Positions 30,844 to 63,213 of a stretch of DNA of 64,000 bases are shown piece after piece. The translations under genes were made by a program, and so were the position numbers. Each line of letters begins with the position of its first letter. Position 1 is the first letter of the stretch. The notes beneath the pieces were generated by a model. It was not told the origin of the DNA. It saw only the letters and a list, made by a program, of their open reading frames with translations, and searched no databases. Location of the stretch: the NCBI RefSeq assembly GCF_054482525.1, contig NZ_CM137006.1. One strand, 5' to 3'.

Positions 30844-30852
30844 GGGGGGGGG
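30844..30852. repeat. G9 homopolymer inside a decayed coding region
   Basis: Nine consecutive G; minus-strand translation on either side gives protein-like sequence in two different frames. Confidence 0.5.
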
Positions 30853-33580: not shown

Positions 33581-33588
33581 GGGGGGGG
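33581..33588 (-). repeat. C8 homopolymer (coding strand) between an SD-preceded ATG (33592) and the alpA start
   Basis: GGGGGGGG on + strand; upstream ATG with GGAGG; current length gives a 9-codon out-of-frame mini-ORF overlapping the alpA ATG. Confidence 0.5.
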
Positions 33589-52995: not shown

Positions 52996-53822
52996 TACAG
53001 TCTGTGGTTCTGAATCACCAGCCTGTGGTTCTGAATCAGATGTTCCAGGACAGCCTGTTGTGTTGTTTTCAGTTCTCTGGTCAGTCTGTCCAGAGTACGT
53101 TTTGCATCTGATGATATTTTAACGTTGATTTGTACCCGCTTATCTTTTTTTCCGTCGGTAAACTGTTTTCGGAATGCATTGTGCATCTTGTCGAAAAATT
53201 TTTCTTTTGCGGCAACCCCATAGTGAAGTACTTTTGGCTGCTGTAAGTATGGTGTATCTGCGGGGAATAAAATTTTTAGTAAAACTACGATAGCAATGTA
53301 TCTTTCGTTATCACTTACAGGATAAAACCAGGAAAGATACGTGTGCGGGATGCGTGCATTGATATATTTCCATGCCCATTCGAGTTGTTCTGTATTCTTT
53401 TTAAGCCATTTGGCTTCGTTTCTCTTTTCGATCTGCAGCCAGTTTTGATGCATTGTTGAGATGAAGCAATCTGATTGATTGTCAAGGATTAATGCATTAA
53501 TCCATTTGCTTATAACATCCAGTCTCATTTCATGATCTGAAGGAATTGTTGTTATGGGTATACTCCCCGCAGGAATCAGCCCCATCATGGCTGTATTGAA
53601 CCCTAATTCATTACGAACCCCAAGGAGTTTGGGATCTGTGTTAATTATAACTAACCAGAACCAGAATGCTGCAATTTCATTTTTTTTAACCCATTCAGGT
53701 ATGTGATTATCTGTCAGTTGTTTATCATTCAACAAATACTCAATTGTTTCATTTTCCCAGCTATATCCATTCACGTTATAACCATCTTCATATTGTTTCA
53801 TCTGATTACGCCTCAATCGCAT
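52992..53822 (-). CDS. Hypothetical protein B (unknown function) with C-terminal ribbon-helix-helix-like segment
   Basis: Low-GC ORF; C-terminus ...VKISSDAKRTLDRLTRELKTTQQAVLEHLIQNH; alternative starts at 53801 or 53915; 3' end overlaps gene A by 4 nt. Confidence 0.5.
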   Translation of the reverse strand: MRLRRNQMKQYEDGYNVNGYSWENETIEYLLNDKQLTDNHIPEWVKKNEIAAFWFWLVIINTDPKLLGVRNELGFNTAMMGLIPAGSIPITTIPSDHEMRLDVISKWINALILDNQSDCFISTMHQNWLQIEKRNEAKWLKKNTEQLEWAWKYINARIPHTYLSWFYPVSDNERYIAIVVLLKILFPADTPYLQQPKVLHYGVAAKEKFFDKMHNAFRKQFTDGKKDKRVQINVKISSDAKRTLDRLTRELKTTQQAVLEHLIQNHRLVIQNHRLY

Positions 53823-54494
53823 TCTCTTCTGGTGATTTTCACTATCACATGGAAATCGAATATGCAAGGAAGTTAACAAAAAAACATTGCATCCGGACTT
53901 GTGTTCAAAAAGCAATCACTTCAAGGCTTGATCACTCTGTGAGATGCTGAAGAACTATTCTCTAACTATTCACGATCTATTCTTGATCTATTCATAATAA
54001 ATTAAAACATGCTATCAACTACTGCTCATATCCTCCTTGGGTGTGTCGTTGTACTGTTCGACTGTTCTTGTGGTCAGATTAACAATCTGAAGAGTAAAAG
54101 CGACAGTAATCTGTCTGTTATAGTGGCGATAAAAACACTGAATGCGCATCCTGTATGTGAAATCCTGTCATGTGGAGCAGTAAGCAATGACAGGCATGCA
54201 TGTTATATGTGAAGGGGGCCGGGAGACGACATAATCAGTATGGCTGTCATTCTGGTTGTAAAACGCGATCACTTTCCGGGGGTAAAAGATGATATGGAAG
54301 CTGACAAACGGTTTGCTTCGGATTGTCTTTTCTGGGGCCTGAAATACGGGGACAGAAAAATAATTCCAGAGTAAATCTGCTCCGTTTTCAGAACAAAAAT
54401 CCCCATGCTGGCCGTGAAAAACTGAAACGAACATTCAGTCTGCATGAGTGTCTGAAGATGTTGAGAATGTCGGTATGATACTATATACACATGT

Positions 54495-54700
54495 TTTTAT
54501 TAAGTGTTATATACATATCTTTTTAAATAGATAATTCTACACATATTTTACTAAGTGTTTTTACTAAGCATTTCAGTAAGTGTTATACACGTATTTTCTA
54601 CTAAGTGTTTTACCAGACATACACATGTTTTCATAAACAATTCTACAAGTGTTTTCATTAAGTATTGTTATACACATTGCTTTGTCTGATACACATCCAG
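54495..54700. repeat. Iteron-like array of TAAGTGTT / ATACAC motifs
   Basis: At least five (C)TAAGTGTT copies at about 22-25-bp spacing, interleaved with ATACAC; inside a 1.6-kb ORF-poor region between hypothetical B and the Gp2-like gene at 55552. Confidence 0.5.
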
Positions 54701-55506
54701 TTTAGTAAACCTGTCAGTCCTGTTTTTACGTTAACTAAAATCAGCTTAATGCTACTACAAAACAATCTTTCCTGTTTAAGCAATCAATATGATATTCTAT
54801 TTTTCTGATGTTACATTTAACCTTTTATGAGTTTTCGTGTTTTTAGTCGTTAACCTGAGACAAGTGTTTTTATGTAAAACGCAAATCCGGCTGAGATAAC
54901 CTGGCGTGATTTACTGTGTGCTTACGATGATTTTGTTAAATGGTTTTATGGATGATTTTGTAGCGATAAGATTGATGAGATGATTAACTGGCCCTGGTGT
55001 TTTTTCTCAGTGCAAGGTGATTATCTTCATCATAAGGCTCTTTTCAGAAAAAGCGTGATGATTGGTTCTGGTGTTTTGATTCAGATGAGATTTACGTTAT
55101 CGATGGTTAATCGTTTTTATGGTGTGTTGAAAAGTAACGTTTTCAGGATAAGAAAATCGATTCTGATGTTGGTGGTTTTTGTTCTCGGGGCAGGGTTATC
55201 TGTAAACAGGTTTTAAACGCGCTATTCGGCTCTGTGATTGAGTTTTGTGGTTAAGCTGTAGGTTTTGGTATTGTTGTTGATTCACAGCAGCAGAAAGCGT
55301 TCTGATTGCGTTTTTGGTGTTTTGTTTGCACGTTCTGTTGATCCGTTTCCCTTCGGGCTTTGTAGTTTTTAAAAACCATTTATGCCGTTGTTGTGTGTTT
55401 TACCCTGCGTGTAGGTTTATCTTTTCTTCGTGGGGGATTCATTCTGTTTTAATCAGGAGCCATTGGCGTTGCTCAATGGCGGGATGCCGTAAAGTTTTAC
55501 CGCAGT

Positions 55507-55544
55507 GATTAATGATGTGAAGTCAATCCAAATCAACGGAGATC
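55507..55544 (+). promoter_or_regulatory. Conserved ~35-40-bp element GATTAATGATGTGAA...CAACGGAGATC (copy 1)
   Basis: Near-identical core to 61295-61327; ends 8 bp before the Gp2-like gene start at 55552. Confidence 0.4.
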
Positions 55545-55551
55545 TCTCATC

Positions 55552-56283
55552 ATGAATCAACCAATACACAATGCTTACTGGTTATCCCGTTTTGACAGCC
55601 TTCTCGACAGTGCCCTAGTGCAGCACCGTGCCGTCTCGTTAATTCGGGTGGATTTACGTTTTCCTGAGTATATGCCTGCCACTATTATGGATACCGATTT
55701 AGATTCAGCAGTGATTTCTCGTTTTTTCGAATCCCTGAAAGCAAAAATTCAGGCTTACCAGCGGAAAAAACGACGTGCCAACAAGCGTGTGCGTGCAACC
55801 ACTCTGCGTTATTTCTGGTGTCGGGAGTTTGGCAAGGAAAAAGGCAGGAAACATTATCACGTGATATTACTGCTCAACAAAGATACCTGGTGCTCGCCAG
55901 GGGATTTCACCGTTCCTTCTTCGCTGGCGACGCTGATCAAGCTGGCATGGTGCAGTGCTCTGCATCTCGAGCCCTGGCAGGGTAATGGACTGGTTCATTT
56001 TTCCAGGCGGACGCCTTTCCGTAAACCGACATCATCTGATGCTCGCCCTTCTTCCGATGATACGCCTTTGTCGGGTGGATGTTCTGAAACCAGGAAGGCT
56101 TCAGACAAAAAGCCGGGTGAAGCCGCTGTTCTCTGGGTCAAGCGTGGTGATGTGGAAGCGATGCAGAAAGCCATGGAGAGAGCCTGTTATCTCGTGAAGT
56201 ATGAGACGAAGCAGCATGACGGTTCTGGGCAACGTAATTATGGTTGCAGTCGTGGGCCGGGGCGTCTACTGGATGGCAGGTGA
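55552..56283 (+). CDS. Gp2-like protein (YfjJ/YagK family)
   Basis: 243 aa; VSLIRVDLRFP...RKHYHVILLLNKD...CYLVKYETKQ family pattern. Confidence 0.75.
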   Translation: MNQPIHNAYWLSRFDSLLDSALVQHRAVSLIRVDLRFPEYMPATIMDTDLDSAVISRFFESLKAKIQAYQRKKRRANKRVRATTLRYFWCREFGKEKGRKHYHVILLLNKDTWCSPGDFTVPSSLATLIKLAWCSALHLEPWQGNGLVHFSRRTPFRKPTSSDARPSSDDTPLSGGCSETRKASDKKPGEAAVLWVKRGDVEAMQKAMERACYLVKYETKQHDGSGQRNYGCSRGPGRLLDGR

Positions 56284-57094: not shown

Positions 57095-57467
57095 TGGCTC
57101 AGCGTATGCGCCATTTGCTTACATATGGGCTTAAACCCTAAGGGGCCCCAGGCTGCATACGCTTTGCCAAATCTGTTCGCTGCTCATGATAACGAAGAAC
57201 CAGGATACAAGGTGGAAGATCCTCAACGCTCAGGGGCGCAATGTTCCCTGTGTTTCATGCCCCCATCGTTTGTTGCTGTGGTGCCAGACTTCTGAGGCAC
57301 CTCCATGTCGTTTTGCTTTTGTCAGCATCATAAATGCGTCGGGACTGGTGAATGGATACAAGCCATTTTATTATCGACGTCAGCGAACATACTCACAATG
57401 TCGGTATATTTCTGAACTGAACAGTAAGTTTTGCGTTGATTACAGTATGCGAAGGAGGTCCATTACA

Positions 57468-59072
57468 ATGAATCCCGATTATGTGCAATCCTTGCAGACA
57501 TCCCACCACTTCCCAGCTGATTTAACCTACAGATTATTTCCTAGTGAGCTTGCGTATCTCATTGACGACTTATATGAAAGTACCCAACTTCCGTTGGAGC
57601 TCATTTTTAATACTGTACTGGCAACGCTCTCACTCTCCTGTCAGTCATTGGTTGACGTTGTTCATCCTCACACCAACATGCCGGAACCCTGCTCACTTTA
57701 TCTGTTGGCAATCGCAGAGCCAGGCGCGGGAAAAACAACGATAAACAGACTGGTGATGAACCCCTGTTACGAATTTGCCGATCGACTCATTCAACAATAC
57801 GAAGAGAGAAACAAAGATTATAAGACTGAACTACAGATCTGGAATACCCGGCAGAAAGCGCTTGCTGCCAATTTAAGAAAGGTTGTTAACCGGGGGTATC
57901 CGGGGGAACAGGAAGAAGAGGCGCTGCGTAATCACGAAAGAAATAAACCGACACGTCCGGTTCGACCGAATTTTATCTATGAAGATGTTTCGCTTAAAGC
58001 GCTTGTGGAAGGGCTCAATGAACATCCTGAGGCAGGGGTTATTTCTGATGAGGCGGTCACTTTTTTCAGAAGCTATCTGAAAAATTATCCGGGCCTGTTG
58101 AATAAAGCATGGAGTGGGCAACCGTTTGATTTTGGACGGGCTGACGAGAAATACCATATCGCGCCACGTCTGACATTTTCGTTAATGTCTCAGCCGGATG
58201 TCTTTACGAATTATATAAATAAAAATGACGTACTGGCGTGGGGAAGCGGATTTCTTTCCCGGTTTCTGTTCAGTCAGGTTGTAAGTTCTTCCTGGATACG
58301 TGATTATACGAGAGGTGAGTTCAGAACAATATCAACCCTGGAGAACTTTCATAAAAAGATTAACGGATTCCTGTTAAACCACAACATTAATTTCCCCGGC
58401 ATGAGCACCGAAAGGAAGACATTAAAACTTGCGAAGAAAGCGTTGGGGGAGTGGCAGGAAAACCAGATTAAGATTGAAAGAAAAGCGCTTGCAGGCGGGG
58501 AGTGGGAACACATCAGAGATATTGTTCTGAAAGCAGGTTCTAATATACTGAGGATAGCTGGAATATTCACCTGCTATTGCTATAAAGATGCTGAGGAAAT
58601 TGAATCAATTGCGCTTTTTAAAGCTATGCATCTCATGGACTGGTATCTGGAGGAGGCGAGCACAATATTTTATCCCATGTCTGCACGATGCCAGTTTGAA
58701 CAGGATGCCTGTGAACTGTATGCATGGATTATGACCCGAATAAGGCAGAATAATTGGCGTGCTATCAGGAAAACAGACATTGAAAGATATGGTCCCAATC
58801 GACTGAGAAGAGCAGAAAAACTTACACCTGTACTCAATCAGTTAATCTGTCAGGGGTATTTATGTATCATCAGAATGCGATCGCATCAGGCACTTTATGT
58901 TTCTGTTTATTGTAACAATGGTTACCTCCTTCCTTTAGGCGCAATGTATTACGAACAGTTTGATATTGTTCTACCCGAGAATATTCATAAAGCGAAAGCA
59001 TATCACGTTAATATTCCACCGGAATTAATTCCGTCATTTGCGTCACCTTTTTCAGAGTATAGCTTATTTTGA
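57468..59072 (+). CDS. DUF3987-like P-loop protein (YfjI-like; putative primase/helicase-associated)
   Basis: Start ATG 57468 behind AAGGAGG (track ORF extends 282 nt upstream); Walker A-like AEPGAGKTT. Confidence 0.7.
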   Translation: MNPDYVQSLQTSHHFPADLTYRLFPSELAYLIDDLYESTQLPLELIFNTVLATLSLSCQSLVDVVHPHTNMPEPCSLYLLAIAEPGAGKTTINRLVMNPCYEFADRLIQQYEERNKDYKTELQIWNTRQKALAANLRKVVNRGYPGEQEEEALRNHERNKPTRPVRPNFIYEDVSLKALVEGLNEHPEAGVISDEAVTFFRSYLKNYPGLLNKAWSGQPFDFGRADEKYHIAPRLTFSLMSQPDVFTNYINKNDVLAWGSGFLSRFLFSQVVSSSWIRDYTRGEFRTISTLENFHKKINGFLLNHNINFPGMSTERKTLKLAKKALGEWQENQIKIERKALAGGEWEHIRDIVLKAGSNILRIAGIFTCYCYKDAEEIESIALFKAMHLMDWYLEEASTIFYPMSARCQFEQDACELYAWIMTRIRQNNWRAIRKTDIERYGPNRLRRAEKLTPVLNQLICQGYLCIIRMRSHQALYVSVYCNNGYLLPLGAMYYEQFDIVLPENIHKAKAYHVNIPPELIPSFASPFSEYSLF

Positions 59073-59092
59073 AATAACCTTACACAGATAAA

Positions 59093-59116
59093 ACAAAATC
59101 AACCAACCTTCATTCG
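59093..59116 (+). terminator. Hairpin CCAACCTTC-ATTC-GGAGGTTGG downstream of the DUF3987 gene
   Basis: Stem-loop 20 bp after the stop; weak T-tract. Confidence 0.3.
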
Positions 59117-60668
59117 GAGGTTGGTGATAAGGCGTTTTGCATATCCTGCACCTATGCAAATGTTCACCAATTATGGGGGGGGAATGAGAATTTCTCTGAA
59201 AAAACCGCTACGGTAGCAACAGTAGCAGCACATGCACCACATCTGTGATTTAATTTTGTTTTCATAATGACCTGCTGTCAGAGCTGGTTGAATACAGGAG
59301 TGTGCGCACTGGTGGAAGCATGGCTTTCGTTTTTTATTGATCGAAAGTGAATCGAAAGATTATTTTTAACATAGATTAAAGCTAATCATTAACCATATTG
59401 TGTGAGTTTTCATATATAACTTCGTTTGATTTTCGTCGTGATGAGTGTAGGTGTATATGATAATGTCGGTCTCTGCCTGAATAACGAATGGTTATCACTG
59501 TTACTGAAAAGAGATGCTGTTCAAGTTTGCATTTCAATAGGAGAGTGAAGAAAAATGATTTGATATTTTTTCTGTAAGATAATGGTTTGTCATGTTCGTA
59601 TTCAGAACGGATGATTTCTTATTTTTACTCATCAAACATGGATAATTTTAATTTAGGTTTATTACTATAATTAGTATCTACCCCTTTATTTATCATCCAT
59701 CTCTGCCCTTCATTTTCCCTCTCTGTCTTTACACATTCCATTACTCTTATTCTCATCCAGTTATATTCACTCCCTTCCTTGTCTAATCTTCATTGTCACC
59801 ATTATCATGGTATCCACCTTCTCCATTCCTCAATCATAACTACTGTAACTCATATGATACTCAGATAAGTTATTCTCTACTACGCTATTGCTGATATCCA
59901 TCTGTTCCTGTTTTCAGTAAAATAATAATTTATTTTAATTTTATCCATCATGAGCTGTATTTGCTTAACAATGATTGTTTATCTGATATGTTTTAACCAT
60001 TCTGGTAAATATCAATACTTCTGTCATCACTGATTAACTGAATGCTTACTCTTTAATAAGGTATCCATTATTCTGTAACGATTAGCCGAGCAGGGTAAAT
60101 AACAGAATTAATAGAGTGAATTTCTGATTGTGTTTGTTCGTTCCTGATTATCTTGTATTTTAAATAAAATGAAAATTATCCATCCATGGTATGTTTCATT
60201 CTGGTACCGTGTACCCGTTAACGTTCATATCTTGAACATGAGTTGTTTTTAACAGATAAAATGAGTGCGTGTAAGTTTATTGGGTTACAGGTATCGTGTT
60301 GGCCTTGTACACGGTTTTTTAGAACCATTGAGAGCAAGTTTGTAATTTATGATGGTGATTAGTCGTAATATGTTTCTTGAACTTCTGATCGTGGGTTTTT
60401 ATCGCATATTTTGCAGTATTTCGTGATGTTTATTGATTCTGTATTTTATTCACTCCTCGTTTATCTCATCTCTTTAGCTAATACCATCAGATAATCCATT
60501 TATTTCTGCACAACGCTACGTGTCGTTAATAACCGACGTATCCATTCTGTTACAGCATGCCTGATAAATACCGTCTGTAAGTTATTACCGTTTTAGATCT
60601 GATTATGAGCGAAAGCATTAATTCGTTTACAGCACTTAAAACGTCATTAACTTTCAGGAGTCATCAGC

Positions 60669-61235
60669 ATGCCTAAATCTTACACACCAAACTGGTTTTT
60701 TACCGCTTTACTTGACAATCACATCAATCAGTTGGTCGCACGCTATTCCCGTCTGCGGGCCTTACGCATGGATTTCTTCTACAGGAAAGATACGCCTGAT
60801 TTCTTACAACCTGATCATCGCTGGCTTGAATTGCAGTTGCGTATGCTGCTGGAGCAGGTGGAACAATTTGAAAATATCGTTGGTTTCTTCTGGGTGATTG
60901 AATGGACGGCTGATCATGGTTTTCATGCGCATGCGGTTTTCTGGCTCGATCGTCAGAGGGTTAAAAAAATATATCCCTTTGCGGAGCGGATTACGGAATG
61001 CTGGCAGTCTATTACGCATAACAGCGGTTCGGCACACCGCTGTACATATCAGCCGCATTATACATACAACATCAACATTCCTGTGCGCCACAACGATCCT
61101 GAAAGCATCGATAATATTCGCGGTGCCCTGCATTATCTGGCGAAAGAAGAGCAAAAAGACGGGCTGTGTGCCTACGGCTGCAGTGAAGTTCCTGAGCGTC
61201 CTGCTGCAGGGCGTCCTCGTAAGCCTCACTTCTGA
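60669..61235 (+). CDS. Gp2-like protein (YfjJ/YagK family)
   Basis: 188 aa; LRMDFFYRKD...HGFHAHAVFWLDR...LHYLAKEEQKDG. Confidence 0.75.
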   Translation: MPKSYTPNWFFTALLDNHINQLVARYSRLRALRMDFFYRKDTPDFLQPDHRWLELQLRMLLEQVEQFENIVGFFWVIEWTADHGFHAHAVFWLDRQRVKKIYPFAERITECWQSITHNSGSAHRCTYQPHYTYNINIPVRHNDPESIDNIRGALHYLAKEEQKDGLCAYGCSEVPERPAAGRPRKPHF

Positions 61236-61294
61236 AGCTTAAGGCCTGAGCCTCCGCTCCTGGAAACACTCCGTCGGTAAAAATCTACCGCCCT

Positions 61295-61327
61295 GATTAA
61301 TGATGTGAACTGAAGTCAACGGAGATC
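61295..61327 (+). promoter_or_regulatory. Conserved element GATTAATGATGTGAA...CAACGGAGATC (copy 2)
   Basis: Matches 55507-55544 with a 3-bp insertion and a 7-bp deletion; lies between two Gp2-like genes. Confidence 0.4.
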
Positions 61328-61518
61328 ATTCACCTTAAACCCACCTCAGGAATTTTACACCTGTCTGGTCTCCTGACTGTCCTGGCATACGACATCTGCC
61401 ATCCCCGGTTCCACGGTTATCACATCAACAATCTCAGTACACGACGCCTTCAGTTTCACCATACGCTCGTCTTTCGCTGGCGGGGATGCGTCGTGCGTTT
61501 CCATATGGAGCATATCTT

Positions 61519-62091
61519 ATGAATGGTATCCCTCATTTCGACTATAGCCTGGCGCCCTTCTGGCCGTCTTATCAGAACAAAATCATCGGTGTTCTCAACC
61601 GTGCGCTGCGTGAACAGTCCTGCTCCCGGGTACGGCGGATCCTGCTTCGTCTGCCGTGGGAACATGACAACGCCTTCAGTGACAGAAAAATCTGGTTCGG
61701 TATGGATTTTATCGAAACCGTCAGTGCGCTGATGAATGCAACACCCGGACGTGACCTCTGCTGGCTCCTGACCCGTCATCCTGAAAAACCGGAATACCAC
61801 GTGGTGTTATGCGTCAGACAGGAGTATTTCGATGGCCCTGAACTGGACCGGCTGATTCTGGATGCCTGGAGCAACGTACTGGGCTTCGCGTCACCGGGTG
61901 AAGCGGCACCGTACCAGAAGCAGATAACACGGGATGTGGTGCTGGACAGTCGTTCACCGGACTGCGAAGACATCCTCAAAGAGTTGATATGGGCGTTCAG
62001 TGATTTCGCCCGCGATCGTCGTGGTGTGCGCGATCCGGAAGCCCGTTACCTCGCCGGTAATCCCTGGTATCCCGTAGCAGGCCAGCTCTGA
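61519..62091 (+). CDS. Gp2-like protein, divergent (putative YfjJ/YagK family)
   Basis: Start ATG 61519 behind GGAG; RVRRILLRLPW...EYHVVLCVRQEY resembles the family core. Confidence 0.5.
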   Translation: MNGIPHFDYSLAPFWPSYQNKIIGVLNRALREQSCSRVRRILLRLPWEHDNAFSDRKIWFGMDFIETVSALMNATPGRDLCWLLTRHPEKPEYHVVLCVRQEYFDGPELDRLILDAWSNVLGFASPGEAAPYQKQITRDVVLDSRSPDCEDILKELIWAFSDFARDRRGVRDPEARYLAGNPWYPVAGQL

Positions 62092-62159: not shown

Positions 62160-62396
62160 ATGTTGACCTCAATGACAGGCCACGACAGCGTGTTGCTGCG
62201 TGCTGACGATCCCCTGATCGACATGAACTACATCACCAGTTTCACCGGTATGACCGACAAATGGTTTTACAAGCTGATCAGTGAAGGCCATTTCCCGAAA
62301 CCCATCAAGCTGGGCCGCAGCAGCCGCTGGTACAAAAGTGAAGTGGAGCAGTGGATGCAGCAGCGAATTGAGGAATCACGAGGAGCAGCAGCATGA
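62160..62396 (+). CDS. alpA: AlpA-family transcriptional regulator
   Basis: ITSFTGMTDKWFYKLISEGHFPKPIKLGRSSRWYKSEVEQW; true start may be the internal MNYITSF Met. Confidence 0.75.
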   Translation: MLTSMTGHDSVLLRADDPLIDMNYITSFTGMTDKWFYKLISEGHFPKPIKLGRSSRWYKSEVEQWMQQRIEESRGAAA

Positions 62397-62664: not shown

Positions 62665-63213
62665 GTGCAAATAACCGAAGCCTTAATTTCAGAGCCGGGA
62701 GACATCCGGCGTTTTGTTCAGCAGGCGGTGGACCACTGGCCGCGTCTGCTGGCAGTCCACTTCACGCTCCATTCGGCTGAAGGAAACATCAACGGGCAAC
62801 AGATTCAGGCATTCTGTACTTCCTTTTACCGACAGGTGCACGAACGTATTACTGAGCGTAATCACACTGCCTGTCCATCCTCGCCGGTGGTATTACGCTG
62901 GTTGCGGGAACAACATGGAGGAGCAACAATACGATGCCTGTTGCTGCTCAGCCAGACGAGCATTTGCCATCCGCGGGCCAGTGCCACGGTTGATGAAGAA
63001 TGTTCGCAACGGGTGGATTTATTGCAACAGACCTGGAAGGTGATAAGCGCTGGCGGACAATGCCAGGTTGAAAGGTGTTTTCGGGTTGCCCGGGGTGATA
63101 CATCTGGCCAGTATGTTGCGTTAAAAACAGTCGCATTGTCTCTGGGGTTACCGGTTGTGATCGCCATTACCCATCGTCCGGTACAGCGCTGTACATTGAT
63201 TACAGCTCAGTGA
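62665..63213 (+). CDS. Hypothetical protein, possibly divergent Gp2-like
   Basis: 182 aa, GTG start; weak pattern similarity (RLLAVHFTLHS...RCLLLLSQ). Confidence 0.45.
   Translation: MQITEALISEPGDIRRFVQQAVDHWPRLLAVHFTLHSAEGNINGQQIQAFCTSFYRQVHERITERNHTACPSSPVVLRWLREQHGGATIRCLLLLSQTSICHPRASATVDEECSQRVDLLQQTWKVISAGGQCQVERCFRVARGDTSGQYVALKTVALSLGLPVVIAITHRPVQRCTLITAQ

What the first reader, a model, noticed from the sequence alone, without database searches (positions are those of the whole stretch)
59073..60668. 1.6-kb ORF-free AT-rich region with strand-asymmetric pyrimidine tract
No ORF of 60 codons or more on any frame over about 1.6 kb, which is unusual for a bacterial genome. It includes a roughly 150-bp pyrimidine-rich run on the + strand (about 59690-59830), a G7 tract (59175-59181) and a palindrome TTGCATATCCTGCACCTATGCAA (59128-59150). 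It could be a non-coding RNA locus, a silenced leader, or a decayed gene.
Basis: seen in the sequence. Interest (0 to 1): 0.4.

Follow-up and report, generated by a model that had tools for sequence, protein, structure and literature searches.

The report
Conserved non-coding leader with Rho-loading tract
The 1.6-kb gene-free stretch is real non-coding DNA of an E. coli genomic island, and its conserved final kilobase most likely works as a long silencing leader that keeps the downstream replication-protein-like genes switched off, though this is inferred from sequence only.

Summary
The ORF-free gap (59073-60668) is real and is the longest in the window. It lies in an E. coli genomic island between yfjI (predicted helicase) and a 188-aa YagK/YfjJ gene with an HUH Rep-like fold.

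It has two parts. A yfjI-linked 5' part (~570 bp) occurs in ~335 genomes. A ~1-kb 3' unit (59647-60668) occurs in ~1570 of 5426 complete E. coli genomes. It is never annotated and always sits directly upstream of the YagK-hyp-AlpA module.

It is not a decayed gene: no protein similarity, no Pfam hit in six frames, no PGAP pseudogene. It is not a known or structurally conserved RNA: no Rfam hit, no significant alifold window.

The unit diverges faster than the flanking genes. It still keeps a -10-like TATAAT block at its left edge, followed by a pyrimidine tract. The tract's sequence and length vary (107-210 nt), but its composition is constant (70-76% pyrimidine, C/G 5.6-12). The tract is the strongest C>G peak and the least structured RNA segment in the 64 kb, which is the signature of a Rho-loading (rut) site.

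Best reading: an AT-rich, Rho-attenuated (probably H-NS-silenced) leader or insulator. Transcription, Rho dependence and H-NS binding are all untested.

The parts
59073..60668 (.). Whole ORF-free AT-rich gap between yfjI and the 188-aa YagK/YfjJ gene
   Evidence: no feature annotated under any listed match in E. coli genomes
59073..59646 (.). 5' part, found only in yfjI-linked copies (335 genomes, two alleles about 82% alike); function unknown
   Evidence: no iteron-like k-mer enrichment
59102..59125 (.). Hairpin just after the yfjI stop, kept in both alleles with changed stem bases; followed by a T-run on the minus strand (terminator-like for leftward transcripts)
59137..59159 (.).
59164..59265 (-). 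33-codon ORF (MKTKLNHRCGACAATVATVAVFSEKFSFPPHNW) spanning the G8 tract 59175-59182; frame kept in the diverged allele but changes look near-neutral; weak candidate only
   Evidence: exact sequence absent from the protein collection
59647..59671 (+). Left edge of the conserved 3' unit: near-invariant block TTTAATTTAGGTTTATTACTAT plus a -10-like TATAAT/TATTAT at 59666-59671; the only sense promoter-like element kept in all alleles
59658..59840 (+). Pyrimidine-rich, G-poor, unstructured tract (rut-like). Sequence and length vary between alleles but composition does not
   Evidence: tandem-repeat expansion in L003
59841..60440 (+). AT-rich body of the unit, 82-89% identical between alleles with indels and a two-haplotype mosaic around 60130-60290; carries most of the oriented ATCCAT copies
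60461..60494 (.). Operator-like inverted repeat TTATCTCAT-N16-ATCAGATAA with invariant arms and a variable spacer
60605..60676 (+). 23-codon upstream ORF whose stop overlaps the YagK start (ATGCCTAA); no Shine-Dalgarno of its own; sits in near-invariant DNA, so coding status cannot be judged
60656..60660 (+). Shine-Dalgarno AGGAG of the 188-aa gene (ATG at 60669)
60669..61235 (+). 188-aa YagK/YfjJ protein with an HUH Rep-like fold (H86, H88, Y156, K159 conserved), always directly downstream of the unit
62160..62396 (+). AlpA-family HTH gene of the same module (candidate regulator or antiterminator)
57468..59072 (+). yfjI (DUF3987, predicted mobile-element helicase) upstream of the gap
   Evidence: PMC5862659

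Best explanation
The gap is genuine non-coding DNA. Its conserved 3' kilobase (59647-60668) is the upstream regulatory region, and most likely the long untranslated leader, of the YagK(HUH)-hyp-AlpA module. Proposed mechanism (inferred): transcripts that start at the conserved -10-like TATAAT (59666-59671), or that read in from yfjI or from IS elements inserted upstream, immediately transcribe a 110-210-nt C-rich, G-poor, unstructured tract. Rho loads there and terminates within the untranslated AT-rich leader, which is probably also coated by H-NS. The module therefore stays off and is insulated from outside transcription. Relief could come from an antiterminator, and the module's own AlpA-family protein is a candidate, or from a factor binding the operator-like repeat near the gene. 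Shown: non-coding status, conservation pattern, composition, lack of structure. Inferred: transcription start, Rho dependence, H-NS binding, any role of AlpA.
For: The unit is present in 1572 of 5426 complete E. coli genomes. It is always unannotated and always abuts the same downstream module, even where yfjI is replaced by IS elements or other DNA. Identity between alleles is 95-97% for the downstream CDS, 82-89% for the unit, 60-75% for the tract and 92-100% for the last ~230 bp. So bulk properties are kept rather than sequence. Across 11 alleles the tract is 107-210 nt long yet 70-76% pyrimidine with C/G of 5.6-12. It is the top C>G 100-nt peak of the 64 kb (C-G = 33) and has 47 YC dinucleotides per 183 nt against a window mean of 21.4, sd 6.5. 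Its MFE is -0.034 kcal/mol per nt against a window mean of -0.261, the weakest of all windows, and its alifold consensus energy is 0. This matches the published description of rut sites as C>G-biased, weakly structured and optimally 60-90 nt (PMC12360218). Transitions in the tract are biased towards pyrimidine-preserving changes, 47 C/T against 9 A/G, compared with 79:83 in the rest of the unit. The only sense promoter-like element conserved in all alleles is at the left edge, and none scoring 8/12 or better exists in the last 400 bp. No ORF covers the leader, so ribosomes would not shield it. Rho/NusG blocking invasion of H-NS-silenced AT-rich DNA is documented (PMC6797219). AlpA-family proteins can be Q-like antiterminators that load in a promoter spacer (PMC7969949), and the module encodes one.
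Against: No expression, Rho or H-NS data were available. The -35 of the proposed promoter is poor, 1-2 of 6. The transition bias is only marginal, about p = 0.05. The tract's composition could be a by-product of slippage and duplication of CT-rich units rather than of selection. The unit evolves at about the neutral rate or faster, which also fits functionless spacer DNA. The P. aeruginosa AlpA binding motif and the RfaH ops element are absent. Budvicia, the only distant relative with a comparable gap, shows only a modest C>G bias at the equivalent place.
Confidence: 0.45

Rival explanations
1. Functionless AT-rich spacer. The DNA hitch-hikes with the neighbouring genes, and the pyrimidine tract is a slippage-generated low-complexity repeat with no role.
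For: The unit diverges faster than the flanking CDS and about as fast as, or faster than, their third codon positions. There are many indels and a recombination mosaic. Motif copies mutate at the background rate. Tandem-repeat expansion is seen in L003. Deeper IS truncations exist in about a tenth of sampled hits, for example CFT073.
Against: The ~1-kb length is retained (930-1063 bp) across all non-truncated alleles and contexts. An invariant left-edge block and a composition-conserved tract persist despite 25-40% sequence divergence. Independent upstream breakpoints cluster just left of 59647 and spare the unit. The tract's C>G bias and lack of structure are the extremes of the 64 kb.
Confidence: 0.25
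2. Cis-acting DNA site for island replication or mobilisation: an origin, nick site or iteron array used by the adjacent HUH Rep-like YagK protein and the YfjI helicase.
Against: No iteron-like enrichment in the yfjI-proximal part. Only one P4-type iteron, which is chance level, and no YfjI-alpha similarity. No conserved hairpin that could hold a nick site. ATCCAT copies are not preferentially conserved and their number varies 3-8 between alleles. Relatives at 50% identity have coding genes instead of a gap upstream. Budvicia's gap has no enriched motif.
Confidence: 0.15
3. One or more unstructured or weakly structured regulatory RNAs. Candidates are a minus-strand transcript in the 5' part ending at the 59125-59102 hairpin plus T-run, or a purine-rich GGA-bearing antisense RNA of the tract.
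For: A terminator-like hairpin with a minus-strand T-run is kept in both alleles. The minus strand of the tract carries 9 GGA motifs.
Against: No Rfam hit at E<=1. No alifold window below z = -3 on either strand. The candidate minus-strand -10 is not kept in the diverged allele. The GGA motifs are not in predicted hairpin loops. The PapR sRNA does not map here.
Confidence: 0.1
4. Decayed protein gene(s), or unannotated small proteins (33-aa minus-strand ORF, 23-aa uORF).
For: The 33-codon ORF keeps frame and length in the ~80% allele. The uORF stop overlaps the YagK start. In 50%-identical relatives about 1.1 kb of coding genes (HTH plus a 197-aa ORF) occupies the equivalent position.
Against: tblastn of those and other neighbour proteins against nine alleles of the gap gives only noise, E>0.1 in a tiny database. 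A six-frame Pfam scan finds nothing. There are 32-43 stops per frame. PGAP calls no pseudogene. Amino-acid changes in the 33-aa ORF are near the neutral ratio, and the peptides are absent from a 15-billion-protein collection.
Confidence: 0.05

Closest known systems
Rho-dependent attenuators in long untranslated mRNA leaders (rut sites), as reviewed in PMC12360218
   Same: Untranslated leader; C>G-biased, weakly structured segment at or above the 60-90 nt optimum; sits between a promoter-like element and the first gene.
   Different: No sensor element (riboswitch, sRNA or leader-peptide logic) is recognisable. The leader is unusually long at about 1 kb. Rho dependence is untested.
H-NS plus Rho/NusG silencing and insulation of horizontally acquired AT-rich DNA (PMC6797219)
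   Same: AT-rich island DNA (34% GC against 47.5%), untranslated, often directly downstream of IS elements or other outside promoters. A Rho entry site at the boundary would stop invading transcripts.
   Different: That work reports H-NS-elicited termination as NusG-dependent and less reliant on rut binding. Here a very strong rut-like tract is present. H-NS occupancy is not known.
AlpA / lambda-Q type promoter-loaded antitermination (P. aeruginosa alpB promoter; PMC7969949, PMC9371919)
   Same: An AlpA-family gene is in the module. An invariant block lies in the spacer upstream of a -10-like hexamer, followed by a termination-prone leader.
   Different: The P. aeruginosa binding element GGGACG-N5-GGTA is absent. 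The terminator there is intrinsic, not Rho-dependent. The AlpA gene here lies downstream of the leader. No binding data exist.
Satellite phage P4 crr/ori and SaPI-type origins next to the helicase gene
   Same: A non-coding region lies immediately 3' of a mobile-element helicase gene, past a terminator-like hairpin.
   Different: There are no iteron arrays: one TGTTCACC copy against 10 in P4 crr. YfjI is not detectably related to P4 alpha.
Intergenic origin region upstream of gene II in filamentous (Ff) phages; double-strand origins upstream of rep in rolling-circle plasmids (from general knowledge)
   Same: A long non-coding region lies directly upstream of a Gp2/HUH Rep-like gene.
   Different: No conserved hairpins or nick-site structure. 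The region evolves fast. There is no evidence that the island replicates.

Membership tests
Rho utilisation (rut) site / Rho-dependent leader attenuator | C>G-biased RNA segment of roughly 60-90 nt or more | tested here: met
   C/G 5.6-12 over 107-210 nt in 11 alleles; top C-G peak of the 64 kb; 47 YC dimers per 183 nt
Rho utilisation (rut) site / Rho-dependent leader attenuator | Little RNA secondary structure | tested here: met
   MFE -0.034 kcal/mol per nt, weakest of all 183-nt windows tested; alifold consensus energy 0. These are predictions only.
Rho utilisation (rut) site / Rho-dependent leader attenuator | Lies in transcribed but untranslated RNA | tested here: inconclusive
   Untranslated: no conserved ORF. 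Transcribed: only a conserved -10-like element upstream; no expression data.
Rho utilisation (rut) site / Rho-dependent leader attenuator | Termination is Rho-dependent (bicyclomycin-sensitive; Rho ATPase stimulated by the RNA) | not testable with these tools
   Needs experiments
H-NS-silenced horizontally acquired DNA | AT-rich relative to the host genome, in a mobile island | tested here: met
   34.3% GC against 47.5% for the window; island context
H-NS-silenced horizontally acquired DNA | H-NS occupancy and derepression in hns mutants | not testable with these tools
   Needs ChIP-seq or reporter assays
Known RNA families (Rfam 15) | Match to a covariance model | tested here: not met
   0 matches at E<=1 over 58000-62000, both strands
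Structured non-coding RNA (any) | Conserved secondary structure beyond shuffled alignments | tested here: not met
   No 120-nt window with z<-3 on either strand; best -2.5; no conserved hairpins
Pseudogene / decayed CDS | Residual protein similarity in some frame | tested here: not met
   no PGAP pseudogene under any listed match
P4-type ori/crr | Clustered type-1 iterons (TGTTCACC) | tested here: not met
   1 copy at up to 1 mismatch against 0.5-1.3 expected; P4 crr has 10 and ori 7
P4-type ori/crr | Cognate alpha-type primase-helicase | tested here: not met
   No BLASTP similarity between YfjI and P4 alpha
Rolling-circle double-strand origin of an HUH Rep | Adjacent rep gene with HUH and catalytic Tyr | tested here: met
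Rolling-circle double-strand origin of an HUH Rep | Direct-repeat binding sites (iterons) | tested here: inconclusive
   ATCCAT 8 times in one orientation, family-wise significant, but not preferentially conserved
Rolling-circle double-strand origin of an HUH Rep | Conserved hairpin presenting the nick site | tested here: not met
AlpA/Q-type antitermination loading site | Cognate AlpA-family protein encoded nearby | tested here: met
   Pfam Phage_AlpA 40.8 bits, cutoff 21
AlpA/Q-type antitermination loading site | Specific binding element between -35 and -10 | tested here: inconclusive
   Invariant spacer block 59647-59668, but the P. aeruginosa motif is absent and this protein's own motif is unknown

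The most novel reading that the evidence does not exclude
The unit is a promoter-proximal Rho trap that the module's own AlpA-family protein overrides. The protein would load onto RNA polymerase at the invariant spacer block (59647-59668) and make it Rho-resistant, giving a self-reinforcing on/off switch for an uncharacterised HUH-Rep/helicase replication or mobilisation module present in about 29% of E. coli genomes and sitting next to pap and other virulence loci. A related variant is that the same kilobase doubles as the cis site where the HUH protein acts.
Probability: 0.15. Interest if true: 0.65.

Novelty: new member of a known kind. Interest (0 to 1): 0.35.

Why it matters
About 29% of complete E. 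coli genomes carry this unannotated kilobase in front of a conserved, uncharacterised island module (HUH Rep-like protein, a hypothetical protein, an AlpA-family regulator). The module often borders virulence or resistance cargo such as pap, ireA and microcin genes. If the unit is a Rho/H-NS silencing leader, it would explain how these 'core' island genes are kept quiet and shielded from IS-driven read-through. It would also give a defined handle, the tract and the left-edge block, for switching the module on to learn what it does. If it is ordinary spacer DNA, little is lost: the finding then only documents a long, fast-evolving intergenic region.

Tried and rejected
1. Known RNA family: Rfam E-value scan, nothing.
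2. PapR sRNA, which has a similar strain distribution and a pap link: primer-derived 5' and 3' ends are absent from the window at up to 3 mismatches.
3. Decayed copy of the HTH plus 197-aa genes that precede YagK-like genes in other genera: tblastn gives only noise. Six-frame Pfam finds nothing.
4. Conserved RNA structure: alifold z-score scan on both strands and a hairpin-conservation scan, nothing significant.
5. P4-type ori/crr: iteron verified from the P4 record, but only one chance copy here, and YfjI is unrelated to alpha.
6. SaPI-like iterons in the yfjI-proximal part: no k-mer enrichment.
7. Small proteins: 33-aa and 27-aa ORFs and the 23-aa uORF show no convincing coding signature and are not in the protein collection.
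8. RfaH ops element and the P. aeruginosa AlpA binding element: absent.
9. Similar unit elsewhere: none in phage records or viral contigs. Plasmid hits are IS-truncated island remnants. K-12 yfjJ and yagK have short upstream gaps. No intra-window paralogue.
10. Budvicia's analogous gap: no sequence similarity and no enriched motif.
11. MITE idea from the 17-nt inverted repeat 59638-59654 / 60167-60183: the right arm is absent in half the alleles and no target duplication is visible.

Full report
**Observation.** The window has no ORF of 60 aa or more in any frame between 59073 and 60668. This 1596-bp gap is the longest in the 64 kb; the next is 758 bp. GC is 34.3% against 47.5% for the window. 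The pyrimidine run is real: 59690-59830 is 77% C+T with 7 G in 141 nt, and the window-wide 150-nt maximum starts at 59681. Two details need correcting. The palindrome lies at 59137-59159, and the G run is G8 at 59175-59182. ORF-lessness itself is not surprising for this composition, because 21% of dinucleotide shuffles also lack an ORF of 60 aa or more. What is unusual is 1.6 kb of non-coding DNA.

**Context.** The gap lies in an E. coli genomic island. Upstream is yfjI (DUF3987), which matches a phage DNA-helicase family at 9e-42 and belongs to a domain predicted to be a mobile-element helicase (PMC5862659). Downstream are four elements:
- a 188-aa YagK/YfjJ gene;
- a hypothetical ~200-aa gene;
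- a 78-aa Phage_AlpA-family HTH gene;
- a second, degenerate YagK paralogue.

**Anatomy from comparison.** Megablast finds the gap in 1572 of 5426 complete E. coli genomes, and no feature is annotated under any listed match. It has two parts. The 5' ~570 bp occurs in only 335 genomes, always after yfjI, in two alleles about 82% alike. The 3' ~1 kb (59647-60668) accounts for the rest. It always abuts the YagK-hyp-AlpA module, even where yfjI is replaced by IS3, IS481 or other IS remnants or by unrelated genes.

Homology in those contexts starts within about 80 bp to the left of the block TTTAATTTAGGTTTATTACTAT (59647-59668). That block is the only long near-invariant run outside the gene-proximal 230 bp.

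Identity between alleles:

| Segment | Identity |
|---|---|
| 188-aa CDS | 95-97% |
| 3' unit | 82-89%, with many indels |
| Pyrimidine tract | 60-75% |
| Last ~230 bp | 92-100% |

Around 60130-60290 the alleles form a two-haplotype mosaic. The bulk of the unit therefore evolves at about the neutral rate, yet its length (930-1063 bp) and layout persist.

**What it is not.**
- *Not a decayed gene.* Proteins of neighbouring genes, and of the genes that occupy the equivalent position in Citrobacter, Enterobacter, Salmonella and Mixta relatives, give only noise by tblastn against nine alleles. A six-frame Pfam scan is empty. Each frame has 32-43 stops. PGAP flags several pseudogenes nearby and calls none here.
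- *Not a known RNA.* No Rfam match at E<=1.
- *Not a structurally conserved RNA.* No 120-nt window reaches z<-3 on either strand, and no hairpin is conserved.
- *Not PapR.* That sRNA does not map here.
- *No convincing small protein.* The small ORFs lack a coding signature.

**The pyrimidine tract.** Between the left-edge block and the next conserved block, the tract ranges from 107 to 210 nt in 11 alleles, yet it is always 70-76% pyrimidine with C/G of 5.6-12. Its measures are extreme:
- It is the strongest C>G peak in the window (C-G = 33 per 100 nt).
- It has 47 YC dinucleotides per 183 nt, against a window mean of 21.4 and sd of 6.5.
- It is the least structured 183-nt RNA segment of the 64 kb, at -0.034 against a mean of -0.261 kcal/mol per nt.

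The tract evolves by duplication and slippage of CT-rich units, for example a perfect 9-bp x 5.3 array in L003. Its transitions are biased towards pyrimidine-preserving changes: 47:9, where about 40:16 is expected, p about 0.05, against 79:83 in the rest of the unit. A C>G-biased, weakly structured region with an optimum of 60-90 nt is how rut sites are described (PMC12360218).

**Promoter and operator signals.** The only sense-strand promoter-like element kept in all alleles is a -10 TATAAT/TATTAT at 59666-59671, with a poor -35. No element scoring 8/12 or better exists in the last 400 bp. Near the gene there is an inverted repeat TTATCTCAT-N16-ATCAGATAA with invariant arms and a variable spacer. 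A 23-codon uORF also overlaps the YagK start.

**Best explanation.** The unit is a long untranslated, AT-rich leader or upstream region. Its promoter-proximal tract loads Rho, so transcripts from the left-edge promoter, from yfjI or from upstream IS elements are terminated before the YagK-hyp-AlpA genes. H-NS probably helps. This matches documented Rho/NusG protection of H-NS-silenced DNA (PMC6797219). An AlpA-family antiterminator (PMC7969949) is an attractive but untested release mechanism. The Pseudomonas binding motif and the RfaH ops element are absent. My confidence is 0.45.

**Rivals.**
- *Functionless spacer (0.25).* It fits the fast evolution but not the conserved composition, length and left edge.
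- *Replication or mobilisation site for the HUH protein and helicase (0.15).* It fits the gene order, the P4 crr analogy and the oriented ATCCAT enrichment, 8 copies against 0.78 expected and 0/500 family-wise. Against it: P4 iterons are absent, no conserved hairpins exist, the ATCCAT copies are not preferentially conserved, and the yfjI-proximal part has no repeats.
- *Unstructured regulatory RNAs (0.10).* A terminator-like hairpin with a minus-strand T-run at 59125-59102 is kept in both alleles.
- *Small proteins or a decayed gene (0.05).*

**Verdict.** The feature is a widespread, unannotated, composition-conserved non-coding unit that I file as a probable new instance of a known kind of element, a Rho/H-NS silencing leader. 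Interest is moderate, because every functional step still needs an experiment.

Noticed in passing
window 53802-55551: About 1.75 kb upstream of the other Gp2-like paralogue (55552-56283) carries no annotated gene in the identical genome (L001), and part of it is 22-32% GC. It shows no sequence similarity to the gap studied here, so a second long unannotated region precedes a Gp2-like gene.
   Followed up: partly
window 57468-59072 (yfjI) vs L002/L007: Differences between the two yfjI alleles are spread evenly over codon positions (24/27/27), and amino-acid identity (91.8%) is below nucleotide identity (95.1%). This suggests relaxed or diversifying selection on the helicase-like gene.
   Followed up: no
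window 62665-63213: The 182-aa YagK/YfjJ paralogue lacks the HUH histidines and the YxxK tyrosine that are conserved in the family. It looks like an inactive or repurposed copy.
   Followed up: partly
L003 3162-3209 (equivalent to window ~59815-59826): A perfect 9-bp tandem array TCCACCTTC x 5.3 lies inside the pyrimidine tract of one allele, against about 1.3 copies in the window. It is a possible length-variable repeat.
   Followed up: partly
window 59600-60668: ATCCAT (often TATCCAT, sometimes followed by TCTG) occurs 8 times on the + strand and once inverted at the left edge, against 0.78 expected. The copies are not better conserved than their surroundings. This may reflect degenerate internal duplications or weak binding sites.
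   Followed up: yes
L006 (strain GPEC1035), equivalents of window 59175-59205 and 59330: Single-base differences are confined to homopolymers (G8 to G6T, A6 to A5, T6 to T7). They look like long-read assembly errors and break the 33-codon minus-strand ORF only in this record.
   Followed up: no
L023 (plasmid NZ_CP010123.1) 1485-4850: On this conjugative plasmid the yfjI-to-Gp2 gap is about 3.3 kb with only a 40-aa hypothetical gene listed. It is possibly an insertion into the 5' part of the gap, and the PLSDB annotation is incomplete.
   Followed up: no
L015 and L021 (MAGs labelled Bacillota): Contigs carrying Enterobacteriaceae-type YagK modules, one 93% identical to the window, are binned as Bacillota. 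This is probably binning contamination.
   Followed up: no
window 30844-30852 and 33581-33588: Two other long G runs (G9 and G8) exist elsewhere in the window.
   Followed up: no
window 57186-59072: The open frame containing yfjI extends 94 codons upstream of the start used by PGAP (57468), so the true start is uncertain.
   Followed up: no
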